Source of the DNA: a virus
Taxonomy: Duplodnaviria > Heunggongvirae > Uroviricota > Caudoviricetes
Length of the DNA stretch: 58,026 nucleotides
IMG/VR virus record: IMGVR_UViG_3300032167_000002
Location: 280,286-338,311 of that record
Strand: one strand, 5' to 3'
Under the pieces are notes generated by a model. That model searched no databases. It saw only the letters and a list, made by a program, of their open reading frames with translations, and had not been told where the DNA came from. Shown one piece after another: positions 1-58,026 of this stretch; positions within the stretch are counted from its first letter, which is position 1; every line of letters starts with the position of its first letter. Position numbers and translations under genes: made by a program.

Positions 1-1
1 A

Positions 2-3000
2 GTTACAACTTCTATCGCAATGTGGCAAATTACTTTAATTGCAATTGCAATTGCTGCTTTAATTGCTGGTATTGTTCTTTTAATTAATCATTTAAATGTC
101 TATGGACAGACGTTAGATAATGCTAATAAAAAATTAGAATAGGCTTCATAGGATGCTGAGAACGCAGCAAATGCTATTGATGATGCAAAGAATGCATATC
201 AAGATTTAACCGATACAATTGAAGATTATCAAGGTGCAAAAGATGCCTTAGATACTTTAATAGAGGGTACAGAAGAGTTTAAAAATTAGTTAAAAGAGGC
301 CAATGACTATGCTCGTGAACTAATGGACACATATGGCATAAAAGGTTTATATAATGCTGAAAGCGGATTATGGGAAATCTCTGACGATGCATTAGAGAAT
401 GGAATGGCTGAATATAATAAAAAATTAGAACAAGCTTATATTGATAATGCAGTTGCTCAAAATGCACTCGCCGCGGCAAAAAATCATCAGGCTTTTGCTA
501 AGTTAGCAGCTGAGGAAGATAAAACTTAGGGTGAGTTTTTATTAGAAAATATGGATAATCAATATTATAATAATAGTATTGGTACATATAGTGATCCTTC
601 AGCAGCGGCTGGAGCTGCATTAGGTAATTTAATTTATTCTTGGATTGCAAGTTTTGGTGATATTCAATAGCAAGAAGATCAAAATAAATAGCAAATCGGA
701 ATTTTAGATGAAGTTTTAAAATATTGGGATAGTTATGATGGTAATCTTAATAAGATTGTAAGAGAATTAAGTCTTGAAGGTATTGATTCTAAGGATGATT
801 TATTAAACGCCCTAGGAATGACTGAAGCTGCTTTATAGGACTTAATGAACACATTATCTTCAAATACATAGGCAATTCTTGAAAATAATAAGTTTATTAT
901 TAATAATGCTTGGAAAGATAACGAAGTATATAGTGACTCAGAGCATAAAACAGCATTAAATAATTTAGCTGCTGCAGAAATGATGACTGAATCACAGCGT
1001 ATTCTTGACTAGTATGACAAATATGATAAGAAACAAAGGGAAAATTTATAGAAGTCGTACGCCAAAAAGAAAGATTTAACTTTTGTTTCTGAAAAAGATG
1101 GAATTGTTGAATTTTTAGATACTGCTGGACAAACTATTAAATTCTCTAATGACAGTATTAAAGCTTTTATGGCTCAAGAGCAAGCTTTAGAAAATGTTGG
1201 CATATCTTTAGAAACTTTTGCAAAGAACTTAGATAAATTGTCTGAAAAAAGTGAGTCTGGAGATTTGACTGGAGCCTTAGCATATTCTCAAGCTTCTGGA
1301 GGAGATATCTCAGATGTTTCAGTAGGATATGCAAACGGTGATATTCAAACTTTTAATACTGTTCAAGATTTACAAGATTATTTAGATATAGATGATAAAG
1401 CTTTTGAAGCTCTGTGGAAATCAAAGGGTTACATGAGTGCAGAGGCTTATTTAGAATCTTTCAATACACAAGTTTCTAGTTTTAAAGATCAAGTAGATAA
1501 GTTAGATATTGCAAAAGGCTTATCTGTTTTTGATGACTTAAGTTTAGGAATTGCTCAATCAATTGAGGCAGCTGCAGATAAAATGAATTTGGGCTCATTG
1601 GGATTGCAAGCTGGTGATCAATATATAGAAGGCCTTAATTCTATGTTGTCATAGATTGATGAAGAGGATCAAATGACTGCATTAGAATAGTTATCAAGAA
1701 TTGATTGGTCTTCTTGGGATGCTATGGAACAAGCTCAAACTATTTTAGCAAGTTTTGGTAAATAGATTAATACCACTGATTCTTACTGGAAAACTTTTAT
1801 TGAAAATATGCGGATAGCTAATGGAGCTTTTCCAGATTTTACTAAATTGCAAACAAATTTACAAGAAATAAGTGCAATTTTAGGTTCTTTAGATTTCGGT
1901 GATGTTATTAAAGACGAAGATTATGAGAAGTTAGTTGCTTATAATCAAGAGTGGGAAAAATTCTTTATTTTACAAGCTGATGGAACTCGCAAATTTATTG
2001 GCGATTCCGCAGAAATGTTAAATGCTACTAGAGAAAATATTGCGACTCAACGTGAAGATTTAGCAGTAAGAAAAGGATTGGTTGAGCAAGTTATTGATTC
2101 TGAAGCTGATTGGAAAATTTCTGCTACGTCCATTGATAAACAATATGGCGATGGTAAAGACGGTAAGCTAAGTAATCAGAATGGTATTAATCATGGCTAC
2201 AAGAGCGGCGAAGATATGATTAATAACATTATGGCAGATCAAACTAAAAATTTAATTGATAATAATGCTGCAATAAAAGAAATTTTAGATAATAATAATT
2301 ATGATGAAACTACTATTAACACTATCCTTCAGGAAGCTCGAGATGGTAATAGAGAGCGTCTTGAGACAATGCTTACATATGTTGATGATTATATGACTCA
2401 AAATTTAGAGACCTCTGAAGAATAGTTAAATGAAATGATGGCATCTACTGCTACTTCTATTTAGGATTTATAGAATTTATTTAGTCAAGGATTAATTGAT
2501 GAAGCTGCTTATGATAAACAATTAACAGTTTTAGCTAATTAGGCTTCTTCTTTAGAAGAGTTAAAACAAATCCAATCTGTTGGTTTAAGTGAAGAGTCAG
2601 GACTCGATACATATGAATATGGCCAAGCTCTTTTAACCTTAGCTGAGAATTATAGTAATTGCACAGAAGAAGCAGAAGAATATTCTAAAGCCTTACTAAC
2701 TGGCAGTGAAACAGAGATTAAAGTTGCTCAAAGCGCATTAGAGGCTGCTGTTGAAGTGGGTGAATTGGCAGAAAAATATGATTTAAATGCAGAAGAATTA
2801 GAAGATTATACAAAAAGATTAAAAGATTTACATAAAGATTCTAATTTAAGTATTAAAGATGCTACAAAATTAGCAACTGCTAATATGCGTTTAGATCGAG
2901 GCGTAAGTAATTTAAATGATAATTTAAATGATTATAAAAAAGCCTTAAATACAACCAATAAAGGTAGCGCTGAGTGGTCTAATACTTTATCAAATTTAAA

Positions 3001-6000
3001 AACAGATTTAGCTGATATAGTAAATGTCGCAGATGGGTCAATGTTAAGTGATCAATTTGCAGAAGATGCTTTAGCTTCTGAAGATTTAAAGTTGGCGCTT
3101 GATGGCGATGTAGATGCGATTTTAAGATTAAGATTAGCCGCAGCAGATGATATTATTGCTAATTTAGATATTGAAGGCGATGAAAATATTCAAACAGTTC
3201 AAACGTAGTGGGAATATTTAAAAGCAAATATGGCCGAAGGAGTATCTGCGGGTAATGTAGATCAATCTGCTTTAATTGATTCATTTAATGAAATGATTAA
3301 AGCTGGTAACATGACTAAAGAACAAATTGAAGCTGCATTAGCTGGATTAAATGTTAGTGCTAATGTTAAAACTAATTATGTTTAGCAAACTACCTCTGTC
3401 CCAACTACTATTACTGATGAATATTTAGAAAAACGGGGAGAACAAACTTATACAGTTGGCTATTAGGAAGATGGTACTCCAATTACAGCTCAATTACCAA
3501 TGTATCGTAAATATACTTAGACTTATAGCGGAGAACCAGTAGAAGTTAATGGATGGGTTCCTCAATATACAATTGAAGGTACTGAAGGTGATGGAGATGT
3601 TACTACAGCTTTTACTTCATTACCTGCTCCTCAAGTAAGTCAATCTTCTACCACAACTGGCAAATAGAGTGGAGGTTCTAAACCAAAGAAAACTTCAGAG
3701 GCTCGCCAAAAAAAATCTGATACGGTTGAACGCTATAAACCAGTAAATGATAAGCTTGATGATATGGCTGATGCTTTGGATGATGCATCTAAAGCGGCCG
3801 ATCGTTTATGGGGTACTGCTCGTATTAATCAAATGGAAAAGATTAATTCGATTTTAGAAGATGAGATTGAATTAATTAAAGAAAAAAGGTCTGAGGCTGA
3901 AGCTTATTTAAAGATTGATAGAGATGATTTAAATGCGGCTGCCGCTGATTTAGGGATTTCTTTCAATTATCAAGATGGCAATATTGCTAATTATGAGTCT
4001 CAAATGACAAAATTGTATAATGAGAGAGAAGCTCTATTAGACAGTTTTGGTGAAGAGATTGATGATACTGAACAAGAAACATTAGATGCTTTTGATAAGA
4101 AATTAGATAGACTTAAAGAAGCTATTACTCAATACGATGAAACTCGTGAATTAATTGAAGATTTAGAGAATGAAGAATAGGATAAACGCAATGAAATTCA
4201 GGATAATAATTTTGAAAAATTAAATTATGCTCTAGAAATTGAAATACAGTTTAATGAAGATGATTTGGCTATGATTGAATATCATATGAATAAAATGGAA
4301 GACGATTTCTATTTAATGGCTGAAGCTTACGCTAAACTTAGTGAATCTAGTTCTATTTATGAAGAAAATCTTCAATTACAAAGACAATACGTTGCTGACT
4401 TAGAAGAAGCTTATAAAAATGGTGAAATCTCTCAAGCAGCTTATATTGAAGGATTGCAAAATGCAAAAGATGCCACTATGGAAAATGCTCAAGCACTAAT
4501 CGACTTAGACCGTCAAATGATAGAGTATTATGGAAATACTTTAGATGCGGCAAATGAAGAGCTAAGTAAATATACTGATAAAATGGAACATCTTACTTCT
4601 GTTTTAGATCATTATTCCAGTATTATGGATTTGTTAGGTAAGAAACAAGATTATGCAGTTATGGGTTCTATTCTAGAGGGATAGGCAAAAACTACTCGTA
4701 ATGAATTAGAAGTAGCACAGGCAACATATGCAATGTACGACGCTGAGGCAAAGCGATGGAAAGAGCAAATGGATAGCGCAATTGAGGGCTCTGATGCTTG
4801 GAAAGTATATAAGGCCAATTGGGAAGCTGCGCAAACTGCAGCTAATGATGCTCAAGATAATATGCTTTCAAAAACTGAAGCATGGATTGAAGCAATGAAA
4901 GCTGTTGTTGAAAATAATATGGCTGAGTTAAATCAAACTTTAGAAGAGACTTTAACAGGAGGCTCTGATTTTGATACGATGCTTGAATCTATGGAGCGTG
5001 CAAGCAGTCTTCAAGAAGAATATTTAACTACTACTAATTAGATTTATGAAACTAATAAATTAATGCGTACCGCACAACAAGAAATTGATAAAACTCAAAA
5101 TACTGTGGCAAAACGCAGATTAACTCAATTTATCCAAGAGACTGAGCAATTATAGAATCAAACTAAATTGAGTAATTATGAATTAGAAATTTAGTAGGCG
5201 AAATATGATTTGCTTTTGGCAGAAATTGCTTTAGAAGAAGCTCAAAATGCAAAATCTACTGTTCGCCTATAGCGTGATGCTGAAGGTAATTTTGGTTACG
5301 TCTATACCGCAGATCAAGATAAAGTTGCTTAGGCTTAGCAAGAGCTTGAAGATGCTCAAAATTCACTATATAATATTGGACTAGAAGGTGCAAACGATTA
5401 TAGCTAGAAATATGCTGAAACAATGCAAGAAATGTATGATACTTTAGCAGAATTGCAATAGGCATATTTAGAGGGTGAAATTGCTAACGAAGAGGAATAT
5501 AATGCTAAAATGGCTGCAGCAAAATAGCATTATTTTGACAAGCTAAAAGATTATTCTAGTCTTTATCAAGTGGCTTTAACCACTGATAGTAGAGTAATAA
5601 ATGATGCATGGAGTTCAGATTTTAATGATATGATTTACAAAACTGGTGAGTTATAGAATGCTGTAAATCAATATACTAAAGATAGTGCAAATACTTTATT
5701 GGGATGGTCAACAACTGTTAAAACTGCGCTAGATCAAACTGGTTTAGATAAAGTTGATAATCAAGTATTATCTATTACTATTGAAAGTGATAAATTAAAA
5801 GAGTCTTTAATTGGAAAAGATGGTAAAGGTGGAGTTGTTAATGCTATTTAGGCTGAAATTACTGAAGTTGGTAATTTAACAGGTGCTTATGCATTAGTTA
5901 GAGAACAAATTCAAGGATTAATTGGAGACCATGAACTATTAATAGGCGAAATTAATTAGACTCAAAAGGTTGAAGAAGAAGCTGCTAAACAAGCAAATGC

Positions 6001-6652
6001 AAATGCTGAAAATGCTACTGACAATACTACTACAAATTAGCAAACACAAAACGATAGTGCTGAAAGTGAAAATAGTGCAGCTAGCTAGTATGATACAAGA
6101 ACTAAGGCAGGAGTCGCTTTAGCAATTATTAGAAATGCAACTGCGGCCGGTTGGGGTAACGGTTCTACGCGAAAAAAGAATCTTGAAGCTAAAGGATTTA
6201 GTTATAATGAAATTCAAGGTTTGGTAAATACTTATTTTGGTAATTCTTAGGCGTTAATTGCTGCTAATGGTATTAATTGGCCTAGCGATTATAGTAAGTA
6301 TATTTTCTCTCGTTTTAATACTGGTGGATATACTGGTTCTTGGGGATCTTATGGTAAACTTGGTATCTTAGATGAAAAAGAATTGGTTTTGAATTAGGGC
6401 GATACAGCTAATTTCTTGGCTAGCATGGAAGTTTTAGAGCGTATTTTGTAGGTTATTGATTTACATAGCATGAATGCGCAACTGGGTGGATTATTATCTA
6501 GTCCTTCTTATGGAGGAAATAATAATGAAACTACAATTGAATAGAATGTTCATATCGAAGCTAGTTTCCCTGGCGTCAGTGATAGAAATGAAATCGAAGA
6601 GGCATTTAATAATTTAGTAAATCAAGCATCTCAATACGCGAATCGTAAATAA
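2..6652 (+). CDS. Tape measure protein, 5'-truncated by the window edge (>2216 aa, code 15)
   Basis: ORF-track fragments 323, 1169, 1808, 2756, 3764, 4265 and 4733 share one frame. Read by eye, the frame has about 43 TAG and no TAA/TGA until TAA 6650-6652. Ala/Glu/Gln-rich helical protein, hydrophobic stretch at the window start, C-terminal FNTGGYTG..ELVLN motif typical of TMPs. Confidence 0.88.
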
Positions 6653-6771: not shown

Positions 6772-9700
6772 ATGGACAATAATCATACTGATTATTTAGA
6801 GCAGTTGTTTTAGGGTGTAGATATCCTTATTGATCGAAAGCTCAAAGATATATCATTTGATACAACTATTATTTGTACTATTGTTGATGCAAGTGATAGT
6901 AAAAATGGTAGATATCAAGTAACTGATGGTACCGTTCGTTTTGAAGCATATAGTGATAATGATAAATACAAAGTGAATGATTAGGTTCGTGTTTCTATTA
7001 TTAAGGGTGATCTTACAAAAAAGAAATTTATTGTTGGTAAATATGTAACTGATAATTACACTTAGCCAATTACATATGTATCACCTTTAAATACAGTAGT
7101 TAATATTACAGGTAATTTAATTCCAAATGATAAATAGGGAATGAGCATTATTGCAAATGGAAAAATTACTGAAGATGATCCTGACCCAAAACATCATTTA
7201 ATTTGTTGTATTCCATTAGCTGATGGTGCTTTTGCTGATCTTCAAACTAATGGTATTTATAATACAATTACTTTAAAAGCAGATTTTAAAACTTTTTTAC
7301 ATAATTATAATGTAAAATCTGGTACATATGGTTTATAGTTAGATTTAGTTGTAAAACCAAACAGAAATAGTACACGCAAACTTTTAAAAACTGCTTATTT
7401 AGAAAGTTCTGAAATGTTTGGTAATCCATATGCATTTTCTATTGCTACTTAGTAGACAAAAATTTTTGATATTGGAACAGTTGGTATTATTACAGATATT
7501 TTACTGACATTATATCAAGATGGTAATTTTTTTGATATTAATGGAAATAAAATTGAACCTGCTTTAATTGGCAATATTACTGTAGAAAATATTGAGCTAG
7601 GATTTGGTAGCGATTTAGTTGCAGTTGGTGATAACACTTTAAAAATTTATACTGAAAGTGATCCACAATATAAATATTATGGTCATAATCCATATCCCTA
7701 TGATAAAAAATTAGGCTATCCTAATGAAATTAATAAAGTTACTAATGAAAAGCGATTGGGTTTATTGTGGTATAATAAAAATGATTTAAATGAATATTTA
7801 GGTTTTAGTGACGGATTATATGACCCTGATTATGATGAAATAGAATATTTGAATTTAGCAAAAGAAGATACTAGATTAACTGCTTAGATGGGTAGAGAAG
7901 GTATCCCGACAGACCGAGATAGTTTAAATCTTGCTGCTAATCTAGAAGAAGCTATTCCTTTAATTACAAAGGCAATGAAAGTAGTCACTTAGGATTTAAC
8001 AACTACTTTAAGAGCTTTGCGTTCTTAGGTAGAAGGAGTTACTACTTTTACAAATGAAATTGATAAATTAATTGCGCTTGCGGCCGCCGGAGGGTCCGAT
8101 TCTTTAGCTGCCCTTGCCGCAGATATTGATGACAATCTTGAGCTTTTGGAAGCACAATATAAGGGTGTATTAGCACATGGTGTAAAAACTCAAAATCTTG
8201 AATGGGCTAGCGATAGTGAAAAAATAAATAACTGGAATAGTAAATGGGATATTCACTATGGAAATAATATAAAGATTGCTTTTAAAACTGTGCGACAAAA
8301 GATTGAAGCGTTATTAAATAATGTCATTAAACCAGGAGTGTATGGAGATGCTGCCGCATATAGTGGATATGCAGGAGTTTATGACACTTATAAAATACGA
8401 TTGGAACGAGTGCTAAATACTTTGGAAGAGTATTTAGATCCAGAAAGTAAATATGATTTTCCAATTGATGTTTTTAATGGTGTTGATTATAATACTTTAC
8501 AATCTTACAAAAATACAAAAACTCAATGGAAATCTTATATTAAGAAAGATTTAAGTGCTTATGATAATAAGTATTGTATTTATTGGTTTAGATATGATAA
8601 AGATTATGTTAATAATGAAGTTCATTAGTTTTTATCTAACGGTTGGCGTAGATTAACTGAACTTCCTCGCAATATAGGTGTTCCTGGTAAAGGTGAAAAA
8701 ATTGATGGTAAAACTTATAATGCAATTAAACTCGCTCCAGGAGAGGGATTAATTGATGTTATAATGAGATTTAATGAATCTGAAGAAAAATACAAAGCAG
8801 TATTATTTTATAATCATGCAATGTATGAAAGCGATGAGTTAATTTTTACTAACGAAGATCGGATACCCGAAACCGCAAATATTGAAACAGGAGATTTATT
8901 AATCTTTGAACATATTGATAAATCTCGCAATGATTATCAATGCTATAATTTAACTAATTATTTAATGGATAGCGCTGACGCAAGCCATTTACGACAAATT
9001 CGAGTTAAATATGATGGTTTATTATATGGTGATGAAATCCTTGCTAGCGGAGGTATTTATTGGTACGTTCCTATTACTTCAACTATGTTAACTGTTAATA
9101 TTGATGAGCTTATCGCTCATGGATTTGTCACTGATTATGAAATGAATCCAAAACCACCTTATTCAAAAGCTGGATATATTTGTTTTTATAAATAGATTTA
9201 GGGAGAAAAAGATGAGTCTGGTAAATGGACTTTCTTGGATGGTAATGGATTTGATACAAGAGATTTTTGGTATAAAATTAAACCGTACTATGATGCTTCC
9301 GCAAGTATTAATTCTATTAAATGTGAATTTAGAGCTGCTACTGATAATGATATTGTAAGTGGCGAAGAATTTTTTAATTTTGGAGTAATAGGTAGCAATG
9401 GTACTAAATATACTTTATCTATTAATCCTGCTACAAATTAGGTAGCAACTTTACCCACTAAAAATTTAATTTTAGATGTATCTTTAAGAGATTTTAATAA
9501 TGAAGAAATTGATCTCAGTATTGGAGCTAATGGAGTCGGATAGACTTCTGAATTTACTTCCTCTTGGTTGTTTAAATTAAATGGCAATGCTCCTACAAAA
9601 ATTGAAGATGGAAATAAAGTTATTGGTTTAACTGCTTTTGGTGGAAGTTGTGGTATTGTTAAGGCAAGTACGAAATTTCAGTTAAGTGCGGCCGGGGCTG

Positions 9701-44804: not shown

Positions 44805-44806
44805 AA

Positions 44807-45363: not shown

Positions 45364-45823
45364 TAATACGCTGATTTCGTGAGCCTCTCATATTCAGTGT
45401 AATATCTCGCTCTTCTTCAATATATGGACCATCAATTAAAACATCAGCTAATTCTAACGCTCCGCGCACTTGCGGATGGTTGCGATGTTGTAATTCTTCA
45501 TAGGTATATCCGCTCCATATATACACCTTGACTCCTGGCACCTTATCTTTGACCTCTTTGATGACTAAATAGGTAAGAAAGGCGTTTTCGTCACAAAGAG
45601 GCTCGCCGCCCATGATACACAGATCACGCTGGATACCTTGGGCGGTGAGGCCGGTAATAATTTGATTTAGGGTGTCAGAAGTAAATTCTTTGCCTCGACC
45701 AAACTCCCAAGTCTCTGGGTTGTGACAACCCTTACATCTGTGGGGACATCCCTGTACGAAAAAGCTCACACAAAGACCGGGGGCCGCAGTAATATCATTC
45801 AAAATGAGACCACTGTAATTCAT
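45341..45823 (-). CDS. nrdG: Anaerobic ribonucleotide reductase activating enzyme (radical SAM, 160 aa)
   Basis: FVQGCPHRCKGCHNPETW (CxxxCxxC), GGEP, DVLIDGPY, RGSRNQRII. Confidence 0.95.
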   Translation of the reverse strand: MNYSGLILNDITAAPGLCVSFFVQGCPHRCKGCHNPETWEFGRGKEFTSDTLNQIITGLTAQGIQRDLCIMGGEPLCDENAFLTYLVIKEVKDKVPGVKVYIWSGYTYEELQHRNHPQVRGALELADVLIDGPYIEEERDITLNMRGSRNQRIIDLSEKK

Positions 45824-45872
45824 ACGAACTTACTCCTTTCTAATAGCGTAGCTAATTCGTAGTTAGCTACAA

Positions 45873-48077: not shown

Positions 48078-48098
48078 ACTAATTACCTCCATTATAAA

Positions 48099-48146
48099 AT
48101 ACTATATCTTGTGGAGAGCGTAAAAACTCTCTACAAAATATAGCGT
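48099..48146. promoter_or_regulatory. Tandem NrdR boxes upstream of nrdD
   Basis: CCACAAGATATAGTAT (-, 48099-48114) and CTACAAAATATAGCGT (+, 48131-48146) match acaCwAtATaTwGtgt and are 32 bp apart. Confidence 0.78.
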
Positions 48147-48164
48147 TTTATCTTGATCTATTAA

Positions 48165-48752
48165 TCAATGTCGTCCTTGCGCGAGCATGTCCTCGATCTG
48201 GCCTGCAATCTGCTCGGCGTTCGCATAGAAATCGTCAAAAGTCTCGTTGACAACTTCGGTGTAGTCAAAATCAATATCAGCAAAATCTTCTTCATCAGCA
48301 TTGAAGCGACGAACAATCTCTTTAACGTCGGGATTTTCCTCTCGACTAAGCTGACGATATAAGCGCTGTTTATCAGAAACAGTTACCCAATAAACAGTGA
48401 CTTCACAATCCGGCCGGTCAAGCAACTGCCGCACACCCGCAGGATTGAAAACACCGATATTGATAATGCCATCGCTGCGTACAGACTCATAACTAGTACC
48501 ATACCACCAATTGTTGAAATTAGTAAATTCCAACATTTCATCATTCATAATTTTCATTGCAAAATCATCGGGATGATAGTAATAGTAATTGATGCCGTGA
48601 GCTTCGCCCTCTCGCATTGGTCTACTGGTACAGCTTACGATCTCGTGGACCTCAGAAATAATTTTCTTTTCAGCGAGTAATTTTAATACCTATTTCATCA
48701 ATGAGTCTTTACCAGCGCCGCCTTTACCCATAAAAAGAACTATTTTATACAT
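48165..48752 (-). CDS. gmk: Guanylate kinase (195 aa, TAG at codon 21)
   Basis: P-loop GKGGAGKD upstream of TAG 48690-48692, then SCTSRPMREGEAHGINYYY, LEFTNFNNWWYGT. Confidence 0.88.
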
Positions 48753-48966
48753 TTTCATTGTCCTCCTCAAACTCATATTGAATTTTTCCGGGGACTTCAT
48801 GCGCCCAGAAGGTAGCACGACCATCGCAGTCGGGGTTACTGCAACGGAATGGGTATTGCTCGGGGTAGGTAGAATATACCATCCCCGTGCTCACCATTTT
48901 ACTACCACACTTATCGCAGAACGCTTCTAATACATATGCTTTTTTTACATATCTCTTAGTCAACAT
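48745..48966 (-). CDS. Small zinc-ribbon protein (73 aa)
   Basis: CDKCG and CSNPDC pairs, GGAGG RBS. Confidence 0.68.
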   Translation of the reverse strand: MLTKRYVKKAYVLEAFCDKCGSKMVSTGMVYSTYPEQYPFRCSNPDCDGRATFWAHEVPGKIQYEFEEDNENV

Positions 48967-51900
48967 CTTCTGCAGTGCCTCCTTGATAACGACTATCTTG
49001 TAATACTAAGTCACCATTATCCAAGATCTCATTGATACGATATAGCTGATGTCCGCCAGTAGAAGCATACTTCTTAGAAACAAAATCATCACCGCTGCGG
49101 ATTCCCGTTACGACGATCATATTACCGCGGTTGAACCAACTCTTCTCAACGACGTGCTTGACGCCATCTGCGCCACGCTCGGAGATCTGCTTATCGAACA
49201 TCGCAAAATATTCTTTTCTGAATTTGACATTTACAACACCTGTTGTTGTCAAAATGGTAACTGTACTCTTAGTCTTATTCTTTGCAATACAAGTTCCGCA
49301 AATACGATTCAAATGAAAGATATGAATGTCTTTGCCTCCCTTATGGAATGTCTTTTCAATGATCGGATCTTCTGGCAATAGGTTGAAATCAACAAAGCCA
49401 TATTTATCATTATTGACATTTTGCAATTCGTGGTCATGATAATAGAAGCACAAGACTTCCATCTCCCACGCAGAGATAGTACCCTTCGCATATTTATTCC
49501 AATCTTCCATGAAGATTTCTGTATTCAGCGCATTTAAGATTGTATCTTTTTCTGCGGCGATCCACTTTCTGAATACATCCATATGCTTCTGGTATACATT
49601 ATCCCAAGCCTTAGTTTTTATATACCAAGACACATTATCTGTTGTCATAAGATTTTCGCAATCAATCTCCTGCAAGAAAGCGATTGCTCTCGTATCAAGA
49701 CTATACATATCCTTATAAGCATACTTATCAGCCTTAGTAATTGCCTTCAAATATCTATTGAACTCATATACTCGACGAGCGAGAATTTGCTCTTCAGTTT
49801 TTTCAGGCAATAATCCGTGCTTGATAAGTCCACCCATATTTTGTAAGGTGATACGACTCTTCTTATCACAAGTCTCCCAGATATACCAAGCCATTACAAA
49901 TTGACGCTCTTCCATATCGTCAAATGCGCCACCCTTGATAAGGGCAATCATAGCTTGCTTACTGGGTCTAACTCTATTCAAGAAATCTTTTGGAGAGCTA
50001 TAAGGTCTGTTTTCAATAATGCTGGCAATCAAATCATCGCCCACATTCAACATACCTTTCAATCCAAAAAGAATTCGATTATTTTCTACATCTGGAGCAA
50101 ATCCAAAATCTGATTTATTAATGTTTGCCAAGCTAACTTTAATTCCTGCACCAGTGATATCACCGATTGCTTTGGCAATTTTTCCATAATCAGTTGAACC
50201 TCCTGCTTCTTCATCAGTTGCACCACTGTTTACAATCAAACAAGCAGTATTCCAATAAATTGGATTGAAATTCATAACAAAGTAAATTGATTGAATACCA
50301 ACAAAAGAATAAGGCAGAGAGTGGTTCAGACTAAATGCATATCCTAACTGGGGTGCAATTGCATTTTCCCAGAAATAATTTGCCGACTGAACCCGGTCAA
50401 ATTTACTATAGACCTGTTCGCGCAATTCCGGAATCTTACTCATTTGCTTCTTACCAACAATCTTTCTCGCATTATTGGCTTCACCTAATGTGAAATTTGC
50501 AACATCCATAAGTAATTCCATCATCTGCTCCTGGATAGCACAACAACCCCAGTATTGGTCACAATGCTTATGCATTAGCGCAATCATATTTTGATCCAGA
50601 CCAGCTTCGTGCATTTCTCGATCAAATTCTTCCAATCCTCGCTTTTGGATACGAACATATCTATCTTGCTGAGATTCCTTGCCTTTTTCAGACATAAGTC
50701 TCATCATTGCGTTCGCCGCAGTCATCTCCATAGGATTCTTTGGTTTCAACTTTTTTGCAATAGCTAATCCAACGCCAGTGCTGAACTGGAACACATCCAG
50801 AACATCACCGGCCGCAAGATGCTCCCAAATGCGGGGATCAGTTGTATCAATCACTTCTGGATGAATATACTTATTATATAGATTACGCAAACCAATATCT
50901 TCAATTACTTTATCTGCGGTAAGTAATTCAAAACATTTGATAATCTTATCTGAAATTTCAGTTACCAAGAAGTCATACTTGGTATCACCTGCGGCCTCTG
51001 CTTTATGCAGGTCATAGCAGGTAATCAAATCTCCACTTGGAGTTCTCATAAATGCCGCAGTTTCAAACGGGTCACTACCATATAAGATAACACCCGAAGC
51101 GTGAGAAGAACGCTTATTTACTAGTCCTTCAATTGACTGAATAATAGCCAATAGACCAGGATAGTTATTTACTTCTCGAATGAATGGAGCAACGGGTTTT
51201 CTATCTTTCTCCTCATTGCCGTTGATAACATCACTAATCGGCCATAAGAATCCACGCTCTTGGGGGATTAGAGAAGACATGTACTGGGCTTGATCGACAT
51301 CGATTCCATCTGGGAAATCCTCGCTTCGATAACCGCGGCAAGCCGTGAGTACAGCTGATTTCGTTCCTTCTGTTCCGAAGGTTGCGACCTGGATAAGTCC
51401 CAACTCTCCACGCTCTTTACGAATTGCTTCAAAAATTGCGGGTCGTTTTGATGGAGCGAGGTCAATGTCAATATCGGGCAACTCGGCTCTCTCCTTATTA
51501 AGGAAACGCCAGTAAGGTAGATTCCATCTGATGGGGTCGAGCTGCGTGATGCCCAAGAGGTAGTTAGACAAAAATCCTGTGGCCGAGCCTCGACCTGGGC
51601 CAACAATTGAGCCACACTCCCAGAATAGGTCGATGTAATGCTTGAAGGTGTTGAAATAGGCGAATAGACAGTCATCTAATTTCTCTCCAATATCTAAAAT
51701 AACATCAGCTTCGGTTTCTAATCTCTGCCAATATTCAACTTTATCTTGTAAGCCTTTTTCATTTAGGCTCTTCGCGCACTCATATAGCCAATATCTCTCT
51801 TGGACGTTACCATCAACTAACAAATGCGCTAAACATGGATAGAACTTATTTAGGTTCCAATCGATTTCATATGGAATGTACTCTTGAATTTCTCGTTCAG

Positions 51901-52849
51901 AATGAGTTGGCAGAGGAATCTTAGGAATCATCTGTTTACGCTCTAAAGAGTATGAAGTATATTGTTCACCCAATTTACGAGAGTTTTCTAAGATTTCAGT
52001 GACAATATAATCATTTCCAAAGCAATGATGCAATAGTTTATAAACTTCATCATATGACATCAAATGAGCAAACTCATAGAAACTATCAACCTCACGCTCG
52101 CCGCCCTTAGAATTTAGATAAGACTTATGGACGTATCTATCTTCCTTGGTGAGATAGTGAGAGTCAGTACCAACAATCAAAGGAATATCATATGCTTTTG
52201 CAATACGATATAACTTGCGGTTGGTGATACATTGATCCTCAGCGGTTGAAGGCGCACATTCAATATAGAAATCATTACCGAACACATCAAGACAATACTT
52301 GATGAAATCGCAAATTTGATTATAAAACACTCCTGCGGAAATCTTATCATTGACATTTTCAGCGCAGGCCATGTTGTATGCGGCGGTGGATAACTCGCCA
52401 CCCATACAGGCGGTTGAAGCAATTACATGCCCCTTATACTTCGCCATAATGGTTGCCAATTCGTCTTTGGTAATGGGCACGCGCTCCATACCTCGATCGA
52501 CATAGGAATGATACCAAGCAGTTGAGCTCAATTCACGCAGAGCCTTGTGTCCGATTTCATCCTTGGCAGTTAGAATAAAGTGATAATATTTGATACCACT
52601 CTCTCGTTTATCTACTAAATAAACCTCATTGCCTAAAACAATTACAAAATCGGGATACTTCTCCTTTATCTTCTAAGCATACTGATTGACTTCCATATGT
52701 CCGGATAGACATTCGTGGTCTGTAATCGCAATGCCGGAAAGACCCAATTCAATTGCTTTGTCAATGAGGTCCTTAGGTCTATTGATACAATCGAGTAAGC
52801 GGATATTCGAATACATTGTATGGTTGTGAATATTGAAATATGTTCCCAT
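48956..52849 (-). CDS. dnaE: DNA polymerase III alpha subunit (1297 aa, single TAG at codon 59)
   Basis: PHP domain (HNHTMYS, AITDH, GNEVY, HFILTAK) lies upstream of and across TAG 52673-52675. GPGRGSA, PDIDID, RSSHASG, KYDFL, YAFSLNHS, C-terminal OB-like region. Confidence 0.95.
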
Positions 52850-52884
52850 TCGATTATCCCTTTCAATTTGATTTCTTATACTAT

Positions 52885-52913
52885 ATTATACCAATTTTTT
52901 TCTCTATTGTCAA
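52885..52913 (-). promoter_or_regulatory. Perfect-consensus sigmaA promoter for dnaE
   Basis: TTGACA (52913-52908), 17 bp, TGG-TATAAT (52890-52885). The -35 overlaps the helicase stop codon. Confidence 0.88.
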
Positions 52914-54085
52914 CTATCTCGCACGATAACGAGCTTTTCTTTGGCGCGCGTAGCAGCTGTATATAGCCACTCTGCATGGTGTCCACCACGCAAAAATTCT
53001 TCAAAAACAAGAACTTTATCATATTCACTACCCTGCGCCTTATGGGTAGTAATACAATAACCATAGTCGAATTCACGGGGGCGCCAAATCTTAGGGAAGC
53101 GCTTCCAGTTCTGCGCGGTTACGGTCGGCTCACCAGTAGTGAGTAATCTGTAATCCATATTTACACCACGGAAAATCAAATCCTGTGGAGAGTTTTCAAC
53201 ATCATCGTCTGAATAATCATCAGACCAAAAATCGCAAACCATCATCGGCCGCAAATAAGGATTGTTATTCAACAAATCAATCTTAGTAAGTGTGCCAATA
53301 GTGCCATTCACCATTACATCGCCCGCTTCACTCGGATGATCCCAGTCATTCCGCAAACAAATAACCTTATCTCCTACTATTGGAGTCGGATCGTCAATGT
53401 CATGTAAATACTTACGCATAAGATGATTTACCGTACGGCGTGTCTCATTCTTTGCTACAAGGATCTGGTCGGCCCAAGTATACATACCAGACACAACATC
53501 TTTCTTATCAATGATTTGCACTTCGTTTCCTCGGAAGAGTTCGAGAGGTTTGCCGTCTCGAATATCCATAGTCAAACGAATGATTTCACTCTCCTGGGCT
53601 TGGCGCATAATCTCATCCAAGAAAATGTGCGGATGGTCGAGCACTCCATTAGACTCACCAATAGGAGGAAGCTGGCCGGGGTCGCCAAGAGCAATAACAT
53701 GAATACGATGTGAAGTCAACAAATCCCAAATCTCTTTTGGAAGCATTGAAATTTCATCGACAACAATCAACTTATATGGATAGTCCAGAGGTCTACGAGG
53801 TTTGTGATAGAATGTTCCATCATTGCGAGGATAGGACTGATATAACAGTCTGTGTGCGGTCATGGCATTCTCGCATCCTTTTTCACGCAAAACCTTTGCG
53901 GCCTTGCCTGTGAATGCGATATAACAAACCTCTGCGGGATATAGACCCAGCGCTGCAACGATAAACTTCACAAGTGTACTCTTACCAGTACCAGCGTAAC
54001 CGGCGATACAGGTCCAGGGTTCATTGTTCTTATAGCGGGCGACCGCAATCTTTAATCCCTCTTCCTATTTAGCAGTAAGTACCAT
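52910..54085 (-). CDS. Superfamily 1B (RecD2/Dda-like) DNA helicase (391 aa, TAG at codon 7)
   Basis: MVLTAKQ(TAG)EEG Q-motif, AGYAGTGKST Walker A, IVVDEISM Walker B, GDPGQLPPI, RQAQES, TTHKAQGSEY, YTAATRA. AGGAGG RBS. Confidence 0.92.
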
Positions 54086-54356
54086 TTTCATCCTCCTTTG
54101 GATGGGCGTGAACCAGCTGTTCTAATGTCATATAAAAATGCTGCTTACGACCATTCATACGCCGACGCGCGTCAACGGGGTCAATATGATCGGCTCTAGA
54201 CATATACGCAGCCAATTCATCACAGACTTCGGCATATCTAAAATAGATACTATCAAATCCAAAATCTAAACGGTCTTTTACCAATTCATCGAAATCTTCT
54301 CTTGGTAATCTTACAATATCCAATTTTTCTTTCAGACTTTTTGCGTAATCCGTCAT
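54069..54356 (-). CDS. Hypothetical protein (95 aa)
   Basis: Intact ORF with AAGGTG RBS, downstream of a promoter. Confidence 0.7.
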   Translation of the reverse strand: MTDYAKSLKEKLDIVRLPREDFDELVKDRLDFGFDSIYFRYAEVCDELAAYMSRADHIDPVDARRRMNGRKQHFYMTLEQLVHAHPKEDENGTYC

Positions 54357-54379
54357 TTTATTCTCACCTTTTTATTTTT

Positions 54380-54408
54380 ATTATACCAAAATATTTTATA
54401 TAAATCAA
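54380..54408 (-). promoter_or_regulatory. SigmaA-type promoter
   Basis: TTGATT, 17 bp, TGG-TATAAT (54385-54380). Confidence 0.75.
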
Positions 54409-54848
54409 TTCAAAAACATATTGGTCTTGTCTAAGTTTATAATATCATCAGACCAACCAATATCTCCCAAAATAAGAAAATCCTCACTGGGAACAATTCG
54501 ATTTGAAATTTCTAAACCGCCTTTTTGATTTGAGTTTTCGGTCTTGGCGTCCAATGCCGATCGGAGCTCGTCTATTTGCATTTCTACCAAGTCTGTCCGA
54601 GCGCTATTAGCGGCATCCGCACAATCCACATCATACCTCAAATCACTCATTGAATCCTTTATGGCAGTGATTTCAGTAGTCGCCCAATCCATCTGTTGCA
54701 TCAACTCTGATAACTTACGCAGAGCTTCTGTCATTTGCTATGTGGTACAGCCGACTTGGGCCACCACTGAACTCAAACTTATTGTAGCGTCTGATACGCT
54801 TGGTAAGTTTAGCATAATATCATTTTGTATCTATTTCAAAACTGCCAT
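54405..54848 (-). CDS. Hypothetical coiled-coil protein (147 aa, 2 TAG)
   Basis: AGGAG RBS before ATG 54848. MAVLKQIQND...CTTQQMTEALRK extends the 54405-54734 fragment. Confidence 0.68.
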
Positions 54849-54864
54849 CTTTCCATCTCCTATA

Positions 54865-54906
54865 AACAAAAATAAGGGTTATATAGGGGCGAACCCCTAT
54901 ATAACC
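54865..54906 (-). terminator. Intrinsic terminator with UUCG tetraloop
   Basis: Minus strand GGTTATATAGGGG-TTCG-CCCCTATATAACC followed by CTTATTTTTGTTT. Confidence 0.88.
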
Positions 54907-54913
54907 TATTTAC

Positions 54914-55804
54914 TTACCCTACGAAATACTCGTAAGCTCGTCTTGCGTATCCTCTACGAGGCGCTCTATGTCCTTCACCACAACGCTCGAAATAACAAGC
55001 GAAGGCGTAGGCACATTCTTCCGGAGTGTCGGCTTCCATGATTTGCTCGAGTTGCCAATTTGTAACTTGTTTGGTAACTCCATCAGTGCCGTGCAACTCA
55101 TCGTGCATAAAATTGAGCTGATCTTCAATACTTGGATTTTCTCCGTAAATTGAAAATAGTTGACGCTTGCGGCCGCCTAGCCACTGAATCATACCGAAAC
55201 CACTTGAGCTATGTACGTCCCAATCGAGATCGGAAGTCCAGCAACCGCCGCACTCAGCCATCATATTACCCATAATACCGGCGCACACAGTATCACTATA
55301 ACCCAGCTCATTCTTCATATAGAGCCAGACTTGAGTAGCAACTGGATACTCGGCCGCACGCTTCTCCCATTTGAGTTTCTCTTCCCAAATTGAGAATTGC
55401 TCTTGGTAATACTCAACTTCAATTGTTGCATTTTCAATATCGGTTTTAGCTAATACTACTGCGGGATGGTCGTCCGCATAACCGAGAGTTAGGAAACCTT
55501 GATAGATGGTTTCAGTAAGCTCCTGGCGAGCAATAGCTTCTTCCAATAGAGAAGTAGCTTCATCATATGTAGTAGGTTCAACACGCTTGAACTCCACGGT
55601 ATCTAATACAATAACTACCTCTTCTGGTTCAGTAGACTCAGTATCTACTGGAAAGGTGGTAGTCTCAGAAGGGATGTAATCTTCCGAAAAAGTAGCAACT
55701 GGATTGGTGTCTGCGACCACAGTACCTGCTGCATATGCAATAACACTTAGAGTGCTAATAAACATGGCTATAATCAACAATACACCGATAATTTTCTGTT
55801 TCAT
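54914..55804 (-). CDS. Signal-peptide-bearing cell wall hydrolase, phage tail-lysozyme (Phage_lysozyme2-like) family (296 aa, no TAG)
   Basis: MKQK + hydrophobic core + AYA cleavage site. C-terminal AGIMGNMMAECG..GFGMIQWLGGRK..IEDQLNFMHDEL..FACYFER. Confidence 0.82.
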   Translation of the reverse strand: MKQKIIGVLLIIAMFISTLSVIAYAAGTVVADTNPVATFSEDYIPSETTTFPVDTESTEPEEVVIVLDTVEFKRVEPTTYDEATSLLEEAIARQELTETIYQGFLTLGYADDHPAVVLAKTDIENATIEVEYYQEQFSIWEEKLKWEKRAAEYPVATQVWLYMKNELGYSDTVCAGIMGNMMAECGGCWTSDLDWDVHSSSGFGMIQWLGGRKRQLFSIYGENPSIEDQLNFMHDELHGTDGVTKQVTNWQLEQIMEADTPEECAYAFACYFERCGEGHRAPRRGYARRAYEYFVG

Positions 55805-55837
55805 AATTTCCTCCTAATATTACTATCAGGCCGTCAA

Positions 55838-57577
55838 TTAGAAATAGTATTTCTGTTCTCCTACAATTTCGTAATCTTCAATAATAATTTGTGGACTTAC
55901 AATACCATTCCATATGTTGCGTTCACACTTGCCCACAACATTGATGGTTATACAACCAGTTTCAGAGTGTAATTTTTCATACTCCTCTTGTGACGACTTG
56001 AATTTGATTAAACTCGTACCATTTGGTAAGGTTATCTTTAGAGTAGGACTCTTGTCTGGTGACATAAGAACAATATTATCTTTATGTAGATTGATATGTT
56101 CGATGGCAACCAGAGGTTCATCTACTCCTTGGCCCCATAAAGATTTGAGTTCAGCAATTTCCACAATGTCTTTTCCTCTGAAATCATCACCGTGGAAAAT
56201 GAAATCAACCTTATAACAAGGGGTAAAGTCAAAATCTGCCAAAGCGTGATTGGAGTAATTTACAAATTGAGTAAAGTTTGCATCAGTGATACCAACACCC
56301 AATGCGTTGGCGTGACCTTCTGCATACATTACCAATTCACTATCTTTCAAAAACTCACGGAGGTTATCAAATTTCGATTTATCGTATCCTCTTCCTGAAC
56401 CCTCCCAGCCATCTTCTGTCTTATTAAGTAGAAGTACTGGGCGTTGATATTTCGCCATTAGCTGGTTTGCAATCAAACCAGTAAGGTTTTTATCGGCCGC
56501 AAAAGTATCTAATTTGATAGCCAAAATCTTATTCTCTAACAGATTTTTCTCTTTGATTATGCGTTCAATTGTCTCCAAGGCTGCGTCTCTTGCTTTTGTT
56601 TGCCTATTTTTGATGTTAGTGCAATTACGACAAGCCTGTTCTACTCTCGTCTCCTGCTGACCCTTACATCCTCTTTTGGTTGATGGGACTAGTTCATATC
56701 CCCGATAGTCAAGCATAGACTCGAATAGCATGAGCTTTTCTTCCTGCGTTCCCATTCTTATCGTGGCATTTACATAGGGAGCAATATAAAAAGCTACTCC
56801 AATAGGACTGATACCGTCTTTCAACGAATATGCTTGTTTGTCTACCATTCCCTTGAAGTATGGATTGCGAATATTCTCGAGTCCTCGCGTGATAAGGTGT
56901 CTCGTTTCAAAATCGCGTAGATCCATCATGTCGGCCACCATTCCGAGTGCGACCAAATCTAAAAACTGATCTGCATAATCAACATTCATAAGCTCGTCGA
57001 TATAGGAACAGAATTTATATACCATTCCGACACCAGACAAAGACTTAGTGGGATAATCACACAGCTGATTGTTGATAATACAGGCGTGTTCTGAGATACT
57101 ATCTGCTTCGTGGTGGTCAATTACCAGCACATCCACGCCTTTTTCAGCCAATGTCTTATGCTCTTCATAATCATTGGAACTTGAGTCGGGCGCAATCACT
57201 AACTTGACATCTGCGGGAACAGTATCAAGAATAATGCCGTGCTGTTTCCCCGTATGGATACGATAATATACATTGTTCTACACAAAACCGGGGAATAGAC
57301 AATTCAGATAGTTGATAAGGGCGGCCGCACTTGTATAACCATCACAGTCGCTATCAATCTGAATTAGAACTTTGTCATTTTGTGCGATATGTTTGATGAG
57401 AAGTTTTACACCCTCTTGGATATTCATAAGAATTTTTGGGTCTAAAATATCTGCATCAGTAGTATGTAGATAGTGTTCTACATTCGCCGGTACAATGCCC
57501 CGGTTGGCAAGTACCTATTCGACCGCTGTTAGCTATTTCTCCAGCGGGATATTAGGTACAATAAGTTGATACTCCAT
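55838..57577 (-). CDS. recJ: RecJ-like single-stranded DNA exonuclease (579 aa, 3 TAG)
   Basis: IDSDCDGYTS lies upstream of TAG 57288-57290. KQHG, VIDHH, LSGVG, ALGMVADM, GSGRG, GHANALG. AGGAGG RBS before ATG 57577. Confidence 0.92.
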
Positions 57578-57618
57578 AAAGTATTCAACCTCCTTTCATG
57601 TAGATCACCACTAACTTA

Positions 57619-57975
57619 TTATATGAATTTTGCTTCAATTTCTTCATCCTCTCTCGTCCAGTCATAAGAGGAAGGAAGATAAAAACGAAATGATTGATAA
57701 GGCATAGCCTTAGTTGCTGGCTTAATAATGGTGTTGATTGCTTCTTGAGAAATGCGGCGGTCGATATAAGACACATTTGCCGAGTGACCTCGTCCGCTAT
57801 CCGAGGCGCGCACAACTCTCCAAATATCATCATTATCGAATAAAATCCAAGAGCCTGCAGATTTACTAATTACTCGTCTTATTGGTTTAATATCCATTCG
57901 AGCATACTGCTCTTCAATTTCAAGTAATTTTTCATTCGCCCCATCACTTTCATAGGCCCAAATAATTCCTCTCAT
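57619..57975 (-). CDS. Hypothetical protein (118 aa) resembling a degenerate terminase-ATPase lobe
   Basis: Intact ORF. ILFDNDDIWRVVRASDSGRGHSANVSYID..IIKP. Confidence 0.68.
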   Translation of the reverse strand: MRGIIWAYESDGANEKLLEIEEQYARMDIKPIRRVISKSAGSWILFDNDDIWRVVRASDSGRGHSANVSYIDRRISQEAINTIIKPATKAMPYQSFRFYLPSSYDWTREDEEIEAKFI

Positions 57976-58025
57976 AGCTGGAACCTCGGTTTACTACTAA
58001 TTTCATGGCCTTCGGGGCAAATATC
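57972..58025 (-). CDS. 3' end of a gene truncated by the window edge
   Basis: DICPEGHEISSKPRFQL-TGA with ATGA overlap onto the 57975 start. Confidence 0.4.
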   Translation of the reverse strand, partial: DICPEGHEISSKPRFQL

Positions 58026-58026
58026 A

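What the first reader, a model, noticed from the sequence alone, without database searches (positions are those of the whole stretch)
1..58026. TAG is reassigned to glutamine (genetic code 15) on both strands
Seen: same-frame fragments join across TAG into full genes, and every gene I could close ends in TAA or TGA. The amino acid is specifically Gln: TAG occupies the helicase Q-motif (LTAK*EEG), a poly-Gln tract (QQTQQITQ*QPM), NPQ*L, and tandem TAG TAG at 5192-5197 and 7450-7455. Established: TAG-to-Gln recoding occurs in several gut phage clades, often with a phage suppressor tRNA. Inference: the machinery lies outside this window. Standard annotation misses at least four genes outright and truncates about 20.
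Basis: partly seen in the sequence, partly recalled or inferred. Interest (0 to 1): 0.82.

Follow-up and report, generated by a model that had tools for sequence, protein, structure and literature searches.

The report
Phage reads TAG stop as glutamine
This stretch of a roughly 200-kb uncultured gut or rumen phage really does read the stop codon TAG as glutamine, using two suppressor tRNA genes that lie elsewhere in its genome. This kind of code change is already well documented in large gut phages, so it matters mainly for annotating the genes correctly.

Summary

- **TAG is a sense codon.** With TAG read as sense, the window resolves into 39 tightly packed genes. They carry 156 in-frame TAGs and end only in TAA or TGA. 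ORF coverage rises from 72% to 97%.
- **The amino acid is glutamine.** In related phage contigs, the window's TAG columns hold TAG, CAA or CAG. Among the non-TAG residues, Gln accounts for 55 of 112. The log-likelihood for Gln is -233; the next best, Glu, is -408. The helicase Q-motif TAG aligns with the invariant Gln of Dda-type helicases.
- **Both strands are affected, unequally.** TAG makes up 28% of Gln codons in the plus-strand virion genes and 8% in the minus-strand replication genes.
- **The machinery lies outside the window.** The 176.6-kb record has no tRNA. Contigs 100% identical to both of its ends close it into a circle of about 202.7 kb. The 26-kb gap holds an array of 42 tRNAs, including two tandem tRNA(CUA) genes about 70 kb downstream of the window. 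No release-factor or GlnRS/GluRS gene was found in the 176.6 kb.

This matches the known TAG-to-Gln recoding of large gut phages (Borges et al.). The scan had already noted the recoding and the two suppressor tRNAs elsewhere in this genome. It is a new member of a known kind, with modest interest.

The parts
2..6652 (+). 3' 2,216 codons of a 3,133-codon virion protein with a tape-measure-like C-terminus. It has 43 in-frame TAGs in the window (59 in the whole gene), including the tandem TAG-TAG at 5192-5197. CAG is nearly absent (8, against 98 CAA).
6772..12702 (+). 1,976-aa protein of unknown function with 26 in-frame TAGs, including TAG-TAG at 7450-7455. Table 11 breaks it into 8 fragments of 60 aa or more.
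13189..19354 (+). Four virion or tail-like genes of 850, 815, 116 and 271 aa with 14, 11, 2 and 5 TAGs. In relatives these TAG columns are TAG, CAA or CAG.
19415..24638 (+). Three genes of 486, 452 and 788 aa with 1, 1 and 0 TAGs. The 788-aa gene was the anchor used to fetch the related contigs L008-L016.
24765..31466 (+). 2,233-aa protein (LRR_5 domain, phrog_14959) with 14 TAGs.
31763..42231 (+). Further plus-strand genes with TAGs: a 636-aa gene (1), a fibre-like 733-aa gene (9), a 155-aa gene with TAG inside a poly-Gln tract (36907-36942), the 84-aa gene 37322-37576 with 4 TAGs (contains NPQ*L), a 140-aa gene (1), a 103-aa gene (1) and a 578-aa gene (7). The minus-strand gene 39750-40331 lies inside this span. 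Its single TAG is 15 codons from the end, so it is the one in-window case where TAG could still be a real stop.
42293..57975 (-). Minus-strand replication and nucleotide-metabolism block. Gene models and their TAG counts:
- 146-aa gene, 42293-42733: 1
- RuvC: 0
- dUTPase: 0
- 80-aa gene: 1
- 94-aa gene, 44075-44359: 0
- 154-aa gene, 44346-44810: 2
- 164-aa gene, 44807-45301: 0
- NrdG: 0
- NrdD: 2
- guanylate kinase: 1
- DnaE-type polymerase: 1
- Dda-like helicase: 1, in the Q-motif at 54056-54079
- 95-aa gene, 54069-54356: 0
- 154-aa gene, 54405-54869: 2
- lysozyme: 0
- RecJ: 3
- 118-aa gene, 57619-57975: 0

TAG is 8% of Gln codons on the minus strand (this block plus gene 39750-40331), against 28% on the plus strand.

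Best explanation
The window is part of a tailed phage with a circular map of about 202.7 kb. The phage decodes UAG as glutamine (NCBI table 15).

**Shown**
- TAG occurs in frame 156 times in 39 genes on both strands. No gene needs TAG as a stop.
- In related phages these positions interchange with CAA and CAG. The sum TAG+CAA+CAG per gene set stays about constant.
- The phage carries two adjacent tRNA genes with anticodon CUA in a 42-tRNA array, 70 kb from the window. That array also holds ordinary tRNA-Gln(UUG) and tRNA-Gln(CUG).

**Inferred**
- A host glutamine-charging system aminoacylates the CUA tRNAs. Their acceptor ends are Gln-like: U1 is unpaired against a pyrimidine at position 72, the discriminator is G73, and one shares the 5' acceptor strand UGGGGGU with both phage tRNA-Gln.
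- These tRNAs outcompete host RF1 once the array is transcribed.
- TAG density rises from the genes flanking the array (1-4 per 1,000 codons), through the replication genes, to the virion genes (14-19 per 1,000). Suppressor supply would therefore gate full-length synthesis of virion proteins and, more weakly, of DnaE, the helicase, RecJ, NrdD and Gmk.
For: - **ORF structure.** Reading TAG as sense joins the fragments into long genes.
- **Alignments with TAG scored as X.** Window TAG columns against non-TAG codons in five relatives give Gln 55/112, Glu 10, Asn 8, Lys 8. The reverse direction gives Gln 41/69. Log-likelihoods are Gln -232.6 against Glu -408.0, and in reverse -118.6 against Lys -230.8.
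- **Closest relative (98%).** It has 27 shared TAGs and 3 CAA/CAG at window TAG columns.
- **Minus-strand columns.** NrdD 137 and 689 are CAA or CAG in 3 of 3 relatives. Helicase codon 9 is CAA in 2 of 2. TAG131 of the 146-aa gene is CAA in 3 of 3. RecJ 100 is CAA in 2 of 2.
- **Helicase Q-motif.** The TAG aligns with Gln in the solved structures 9kwf and T4 Dda 3upu.
- Over nine genes the counts are 202 (window), 187 and 184 when TAG is included. The relative with only 6 TAGs has more CAG, 51 against 28.
- **Codon context.** The base after TAG is distributed as after CAA/CAG (p=0.55). Real stops are followed by T in 23 of 39 cases.
- **Suppressor tRNAs.** They lie at L020 18773-18847 and 18848-18922 on the minus strand, on a contig 100% identical to the last 12,369 bases of the record. 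They score 48.7 and 50.1 bits against Rfam tRNA.
- **Genome closure.** L026 overlaps L017 over 731 nt at 100% identity.
- **Gln-like acceptor ends.**
- **Conservation.** A related phage has a tRNA(CUA) at the same locus.
- **Strand bias.** TAG is 141/507 of Gln codons on the plus strand and 15/183 on the minus strand, Fisher p = 8e-9.
- **Literature.** The same pattern is described for code-15 gut phages and was validated by metaproteomics in crAss-like phages (10.1101/2021.08.26.457843; PMC9523058).
Against: - There is no peptide or expression evidence for this phage.
- A few TAG columns do not hold Gln in relatives. DnaE codon 59 is Lys in 3 of 3. RecJ codon 15 is Glu in 2 of 2. Gmk codon 45 is Gln, Gly and Ala.
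- Distant solved homologues have Thr/Glu (NrdD), Lys/Gly/His (RecJ) and Lys/Ala (Gmk) at TAG columns. These columns are variable and so uninformative.
- Overall, the suppressor tRNAs are no closer to the phage tRNA-Gln (64.5% for one of them) than to tRNA-Trp (68%) or tRNA-Met (66%). Their charging identity is therefore inferred from the acceptor end only.
- The host, and hence its code and its route to Gln-tRNA, is unknown.
- No RF2 or aminoacyl-tRNA synthetase gene was found to reinforce a switch.
- The temporal order early, middle, late is inferred from gene content, not measured.
Confidence: 0.93

Rival explanations
1. TAG is read through but inserts an amino acid other than glutamine, for example Glu, Lys, Tyr, Trp or pyrrolysine. 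Alternatively, the two different CUA tRNAs insert two different residues, which would make decoding ambiguous.
For: ARAGORN labels the tRNAs 'Pyl', but only because of the anticodon. The two suppressors have different acceptor stems. Suppressor 2 is most similar overall to the phage tRNA-Trp, at 68%. The DnaE TAG aligns to Lys and RecJ TAG15 aligns to Glu in relatives.
Against: The substitution spectrum fits Gln by 175 (window TAG columns) and 112 (relatives' TAG columns) log-likelihood units over the next amino acid. The invariant helicase Gln is encoded by TAG. Both tRNAs have ordinary D and T loops and match the general tRNA model end to end; by my own knowledge, tRNA-Pyl is atypical in these features.
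Confidence: 0.04
2. TAG remains a stop, or is only a leaky stop. The interrupted frames would then be pseudogenes of a decaying element, or proteins made at a low read-through level as a throttle, with no true reassignment.
For: The host presumably uses the standard code with RF1. No RF1 antagonist or RF2 gene was found. One in-window gene (39750-40331, minus strand) has its only TAG 15 codons from the end and could terminate there.
Against: Frames with 59, 26 and 14 TAGs contain no TAA or TGA at all. The genes are conserved and full length across many related contigs of about 185-207 kb. TAG columns exchange with Gln codons, as a neutral synonymous change would. With 59 TAGs in one gene, anything below near-complete read-through would yield essentially no product. 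TAG context does not differ from that of Gln codons. Dedicated suppressor tRNAs are present.
Confidence: 0.02
3. The in-frame TAGs are an assembly or sequencing artefact, or the contig is a chimera.
For: The record is a linear metagenome-derived contig that lacks 26 kb of the genome.
Against: Independent assemblies from other samples are 100% identical over 12-13 kb at each end. A 98%-identical contig shares 27 of 30 TAG positions.
Confidence: 0.01

Closest known systems
TAG-to-Gln (code 15) recoded large gut phages of Borges et al. (Jade, Sapphire and Agate clades; 10.1101/2021.08.26.457843)
   Same: - The genome is about 200 kb (202.7 kb here; the paper lists clade means of 210 +/- 35, 201 +/- 22 and 154 +/- 27 kb for its large clades).
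- It carries phage suppressor tRNA(CUA) genes.
- TAG is concentrated in structural genes and variable in replication genes.
- Recoded modules are spread over the genome.
- TAG usage differs sharply between close relatives.
- Most such genomes also lack RF and synthetase genes.
   Different: Clade membership was not tested, because there was no terminase phylogeny against their genomes. This phage has two tandem, non-identical suppressors inside a 42-tRNA array. The lysozyme gene in the window carries no TAG, whereas the paper stresses recoded lysis genes.
crAss-like phages (Crassvirales) using code 15, validated by metaproteomics (PMC9523058; PMC7886860)
   Same: They show the same reassignment (TAG to Gln), suppressor tRNAs, and recoded late genes.
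   Different: The replication module differs. This phage has a DnaE-type polymerase about 39% identical to Bacillus phage SPbeta YorL and to phAss-1, together with NrdD/NrdG, RecJ and a Dda-like helicase.
phAss-1, a 135,976-bp human-gut phage with TAG in 41 ORFs (PMC10607447; OQ749652)
   Same: It uses TAG as a sense codon, and its DnaE-type polymerase is homologous (38.6% identity over the full length).
   Different: It is only a distant relative and much smaller. No other genes were compared.
E. coli supE-type amber suppression (tRNA-Gln with anticodon CUA), from my own knowledge of tRNA identity rules
   Same: A CUA anticodon sits on a tRNA with a weak or open 1:72 pair, G73, G10 and U35. 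One of the two tRNAs also has G2-C71 and G3-C70. These are the features GlnRS is known to use.
   Different: Here the tRNAs are phage-encoded and present in two versions. They must be efficient enough to read up to 59 TAGs in one mRNA. Charging has not been tested.

Membership tests
Code-15 (TAG to Gln) recoded phage | Conserved genes are interrupted by in-frame TAG but never by TAA or TGA, and reading TAG as sense restores coding density | tested here: met
   There are 156 TAGs in 39 genes. Coverage is 96.9% against 71.9%.
Code-15 (TAG to Gln) recoded phage | TAG columns correspond to glutamine in homologues | tested here: met
   Gln accounts for 55/112 and 41/69 of non-TAG partners. The log-likelihood favours Gln by 175 (window TAG columns) and 112 (relatives' TAG columns) units. 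The helicase Q-motif and near relatives agree.
Code-15 (TAG to Gln) recoded phage | Phage-encoded suppressor tRNA with anticodon CUA | tested here: met
   Two tandem tRNA(CUA) genes lie on contigs 100% identical to the record's ends, 70.4 kb beyond the window end. They are not inside the window or the 176.6-kb record.
Code-15 (TAG to Gln) recoded phage | Recoded codon enriched in structural or late genes relative to early genes | tested here: met
   TAG is 28% of Gln codons in plus-strand virion genes and 8% in the replication block (p = 8e-9). Density is 1-4 per 1,000 codons next to the tRNA array and 14-19 in the virion block. Expression timing itself was not measured.
Code-15 (TAG to Gln) recoded phage | TAG is not used as a terminator | tested here: inconclusive
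   Three in-window genes have their only TAG near the C-terminus. Two are shown to be sense by relatives (CAA or CAG, with the alignment running to the end). One (39750-40331, minus strand) has no orthologue in the fetched relatives.
Code-15 (TAG to Gln) recoded phage | Peptides with Gln at TAG, and a host that uses the standard code | not testable with these tools
Jade or Sapphire clade (Borges et al.) | Placement by large-terminase phylogeny with the named clade genomes | not tested
   The reference genomes were not available in the tools. Only genome size (about 202.7 kb) and architecture agree.
Crassvirales | crAss-type replication and transcription gene set | tested here: not met
   The polymerase is DnaE/PolIII-alpha type and is closest to SPbeta-like phages. 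None of the window proteins scanned against PHROGs (27 of the 39 models) hit a family annotated as RNA polymerase or as crAss-type; the rest of the genome was not scanned.
Lak megaphages | Genome of about 540-660 kb | tested here: not met
   The closed map is about 202.7 kb.

The most novel reading that the evidence does not exclude
Essential replication enzymes each carry one to three TAGs: DnaE, the helicase (in its invariant Q-motif), RecJ, NrdD and Gmk. The code switch would then have to happen before DNA replication, not only before virion assembly and lysis. On this reading the suppressor pair in the early-transcribed tRNA array is a master checkpoint for the whole middle and late programme. 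The fast TAG/CAG turnover between close relatives (6 against 44 TAGs in the same nine genes) would reflect ongoing selection on that checkpoint, and not neutral drift after reassignment.
Probability: 0.25. Interest if true: 0.55.

Novelty: new member of a known kind. Interest (0 to 1): 0.3.

Why it matters
The main value is practical. Under the standard bacterial code about two thirds of the genes in this window are split or lost. These include a 3,133-residue virion protein cut at 59 places and replication enzymes that lose conserved N-terminal motifs. Any annotation, host prediction or protein-family work on this widespread group of phages must therefore use TAG=Gln. The group is large: the 120 best NrdD matches listed are all 87-99% identical, with contigs up to about 207 kb.

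The case also adds a clean, fully closed example to the recoded-phage catalogue. It shows a TAG density gradient, a dual suppressor locus and a near-unrecoded sister lineage, which could serve studies of how recoding spreads.

Tried and rejected
- **IMG/VR search.** Searching with the 788-aa protein found no relative. Relatives came from the protein database plus an exact-protein contig look-up instead.
- **Distant solved-structure homologues.** For NrdD, RecJ and Gmk the TAG columns fall in variable positions (Thr/Glu, Lys/Gly/His, Lys/Ala) and say nothing either way. Only the helicase Q-motif was informative.
- **Database proteins.** All 120 NrdD relatives show Q at both TAG columns. The database had already translated TAG as Q, so I did not count this and went to the DNA instead.
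- **tRNA search in the record.** ARAGORN and Rfam found nothing in the 176.6-kb record. ARAGORN hits with relaxed settings and introns were judged noise.
- **Possible TGA recoding.** The GC-richer arms gave slightly longer ORFs with TGA as sense. I dismissed this because the long frames there have shadow ORFs on both strands and the real genes end in TGA.
- **Metagenome records.** I walked the gap with exact-protein look-ups instead.
- **Special context around TAG.** The base after TAG shows no bias (p = 0.55). The tandem TAG-TAG pairs are ordinary Gln-Gln.
- **Theta or HDV-like ribozymes next to the suppressors.** No Rfam family other than tRNA, ROOL, drum and an OLE-like fragment reached threshold in the array.


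Full report
**What the window is.** The window is bases 54,573-112,598 of a 176,574-bp IMG/VR virus record, which is linear and estimated 92% complete by CheckV. The window is 35.7% G+C.

PHROG matches, plus Pfam hits precomputed for orthologues, show two blocks. A plus-strand block (1-42,231) holds very large virion or tail-like proteins. A minus-strand block (42,293-57,975) holds replication and nucleotide-metabolism genes: RuvC, dUTPase, NrdG, NrdD, guanylate kinase, a DnaE-type polymerase, a Dda-like helicase, lysozyme and RecJ. The polymerase is about 39% identical to YorL of Bacillus phage SPbeta and to the gut phage phAss-1. This is not a crAss-like phage.

**Checking the observation.**
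- With TAG as sense, 35 gene models of at least 100 aa carry 151 in-frame TAGs in 18,291 codons. Their stops are TAA 26 and TGA 9.
- Four more small genes raise the totals to 39 genes and 156 TAGs, which is 22.6% of all Gln-type codons.
- The first gene is the 3' part of a 3,133-codon frame with 59 TAGs and no TAA or TGA. That cannot happen by chance at this base composition.
- Greedy ORF coverage of the window is 96.9% against 71.9%, with 39 models against 75 fragments.
- Twenty-four of the 35 larger models are interrupted. Nine keep less than half of their length in the best table-11 fragment. One (18192-18542) has no fragment of 60 aa or more, and the 84-aa gene with four TAGs would probably be lost as well, though its fragments were not measured.
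'At least four missed' is plausible but depends on the threshold.

**Which amino acid.**
1. I fetched related phage contigs through homologues of a TAG-free 788-aa protein and of NrdD. I then aligned orthologues with TAG scored as X, so that the result is not circular.
2. Across five non-redundant relatives, window TAG columns face TAG, or, when not TAG, Gln 55, Glu 10, Asn 8, Lys 8 and others 31 (n=112). TAGs in the relatives face Gln 41 of 69 in the window.
3. I used the empirical substitution profile of each amino acid from the same alignments. Gln fits at -232.6 against -408.0 for Glu, and in reverse at -118.6 against -230.8 for Lys.
4. True CAA/CAG columns are conserved as Gln at 65%, and TAG columns at 49%.
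5. The 98%-identical contig shares 27 TAGs and has CAA or CAG at the other three.
6. Over nine shared genes, TAG+CAA+CAG is 202 in the window, and 187 and 184 in two relatives. The relative with only 6 TAGs (against 44) has correspondingly more CAG, 51 against 28.
7. The base that follows TAG is distributed as after CAA/CAG (p = 0.55). Real stops are followed by T in 23 of 39 cases.

**Both strands.** The TAG columns of the minus-strand genes behave as follows:

| Gene and TAG codon | Codon in relatives |
|---|---|
| NrdD 137 and 689 | CAA or CAG in all three |
| Helicase 9 | CAA in two |
| 146-aa gene, TAG131 | CAA in three, with the alignment running to the C-terminus |
| RecJ 100 | CAA in two |
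| RecJ 21 | TAG and CAG |
| DnaE 59 | Lys in three |
| RecJ 15 | Glu in two |
| Gmk 45 | Gln, Gly, Ala |

- The helicase TAG is the Gln of the 'LT..Q' motif. It aligns with Gln in the solved structures 9kwf and T4 Dda 3upu.
- The exceptions (DnaE 59, RecJ 15, Gmk 45) are ordinary neighbours of Gln in substitution terms.
- TAG is used far more in the virion block (141 of 507 Gln codons) than in the replication block (15 of 183), Fisher p = 8e-9.
- Only one in-window gene (39750-40331, minus strand) could still use TAG as a real stop.

**The machinery.**
- **No tRNA in the record.** Neither ARAGORN nor Rfam finds any tRNA in the window or in the rest of the 176.6-kb record.
- **Closing the genome.**
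  - Exact-protein look-ups with genes at both ends of the record returned metagenome contigs that are 100% identical to the first 13,045 and the last 12,369 bases and extend beyond them.
  - One more step gave a piece that overlaps both extensions at 100%.
  - The map therefore closes at about 202,664 bp, with a 26,090-bp gap.
- **The tRNA array.**
  - The gap is essentially one minus-strand array of 42 tRNAs. It includes tRNA-Gln(UUG), tRNA-Gln(CUG) and two adjacent tRNA(CUA) genes.
- The CUA pair lies 70.4 kb beyond the window end, which is 74.1 kb before its start on the circle.
- **Features of the two suppressors.**
  - Both match the Rfam tRNA model end to end, at 48.7 and 50.1 bits, and encode CCA.
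  - One has U1.C72, G2-C71, G3-C70, G10 and G73, and the same 5' acceptor strand (UGGGGGU) as both phage tRNA-Gln.
  - The other has U1.U72 and G73.
- **A related phage.** It has a single tRNA(CUA) at the same locus, again with U1.U72 and G73.
- **Reading of these features.** From my own knowledge, an open 1:72 pair, G73, G10 and U35 are what GlnRS uses, so Gln charging is plausible. It remains an inference, because overall sequence similarity does not single out tRNA-Gln.
- **Other factors.** No release-factor domain and no GlnRS/GluRS catalytic domain was found in the 176.6 kb. The 26-kb gap was not searched for these domains.

**How it probably works.** Genes next to the tRNA array have 1-4 TAGs per 1,000 codons, replication genes 2-5, and the virion block 14-19. 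The likely sequence is as follows.
1. The host translates TAG-poor early genes under the standard code.
2. The tRNA array is transcribed.
3. The CUA tRNAs are charged with Gln by host enzymes and outcompete RF1.
4. TAG-bearing genes then yield full-length protein.

Steps 2-4 are inferred. Only the sequence features are shown. This is the model proposed for recoded gut phages by Borges et al. (10.1101/2021.08.26.457843). Peters et al. confirmed Gln at TAG by metaproteomics in crAss-like phages (PMC9523058).

**Comparison and novelty.**
- Genome size, dispersed recoded modules, variable recoding of replication genes, suppressor tRNAs, absence of RF and synthetase genes, and sharp differences in TAG use between close relatives all match the large TAG-recoded clades of Borges et al. 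Clade membership itself was not tested.
- The phage is not crAss-like and not a Lak phage.
- The scan had already recorded the recoding and the suppressor pair on neighbouring windows of the same genome. I re-derived both independently.
- The finding is correct, but it is a new member of a known kind. Its main consequence is for annotation.
- Small additions from this work are the closed 202.7-kb map, the quantitative Gln test, the Gln-codon budget, the absence of a special TAG context, and a sister lineage that has barely started to use TAG in the same genes.

Noticed in passing
L026 7152-7765, 2448-2558 and 13611-13698 (tRNA array, outside the window): The phage tRNA array contains a full-length ROOL RNA (327.8 bits), a drum RNA (78.1 bits) and a short OLE-like match (53.4 bits, just over threshold) between the tRNA genes.
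   Followed up: no
G000 ends plus L017, L019, L020 and L026: The 176.6-kb record is cut on both sides of its tRNA array. Contigs from other samples, 100% identical in their overlaps, close it into a map of about 202,664 bp with a 26,090-bp gap holding 42 tRNAs. CheckV's 92% completeness would imply only about 192 kb.
   Followed up: yes
L013 (relative) against window 13189-34312: A related phage (52-87% protein identity across these genes) has only 6 in-frame TAGs where the window has 44, and has more CAG instead (51 against 28). TAG use therefore differs about sevenfold between relatives in the same virion genes.
   Followed up: partly
window 48956-52849 (-), codon 59; 55838-57577 (-), codon 15: The single TAG of the DnaE-type polymerase aligns to Lys (AAA or AAG) in three relatives, and RecJ TAG15 aligns to Glu in two. 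These are the only repeated non-Gln partners seen.
   Followed up: partly
window 54914-55804 (-): The Phage_lysozyme2-type lysozyme sits inside the replication block and has no TAG. Published models stress recoded lysis genes.
   Followed up: no
L017 18205-18278; L020 16983-17405: The array also holds a tRNA-like gene for which ARAGORN reports a two-base anticodon. It also holds PD-(D/E)XK (PF11645) genes among the tRNAs, as earlier notes of this scan describe.
   Followed up: no
L025 11272-11362 (relative): The single tRNA(CUA) of a related phage is 91 nt long, with an insertion relative to this phage's suppressors, at the same locus.
   Followed up: partly
window 36844-37311 (+): A 155-aa protein starts with a Gln/Pro-rich low-complexity tract in which one Gln is encoded by TAG. 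It matches phrog_21718 of unknown function.
   Followed up: no
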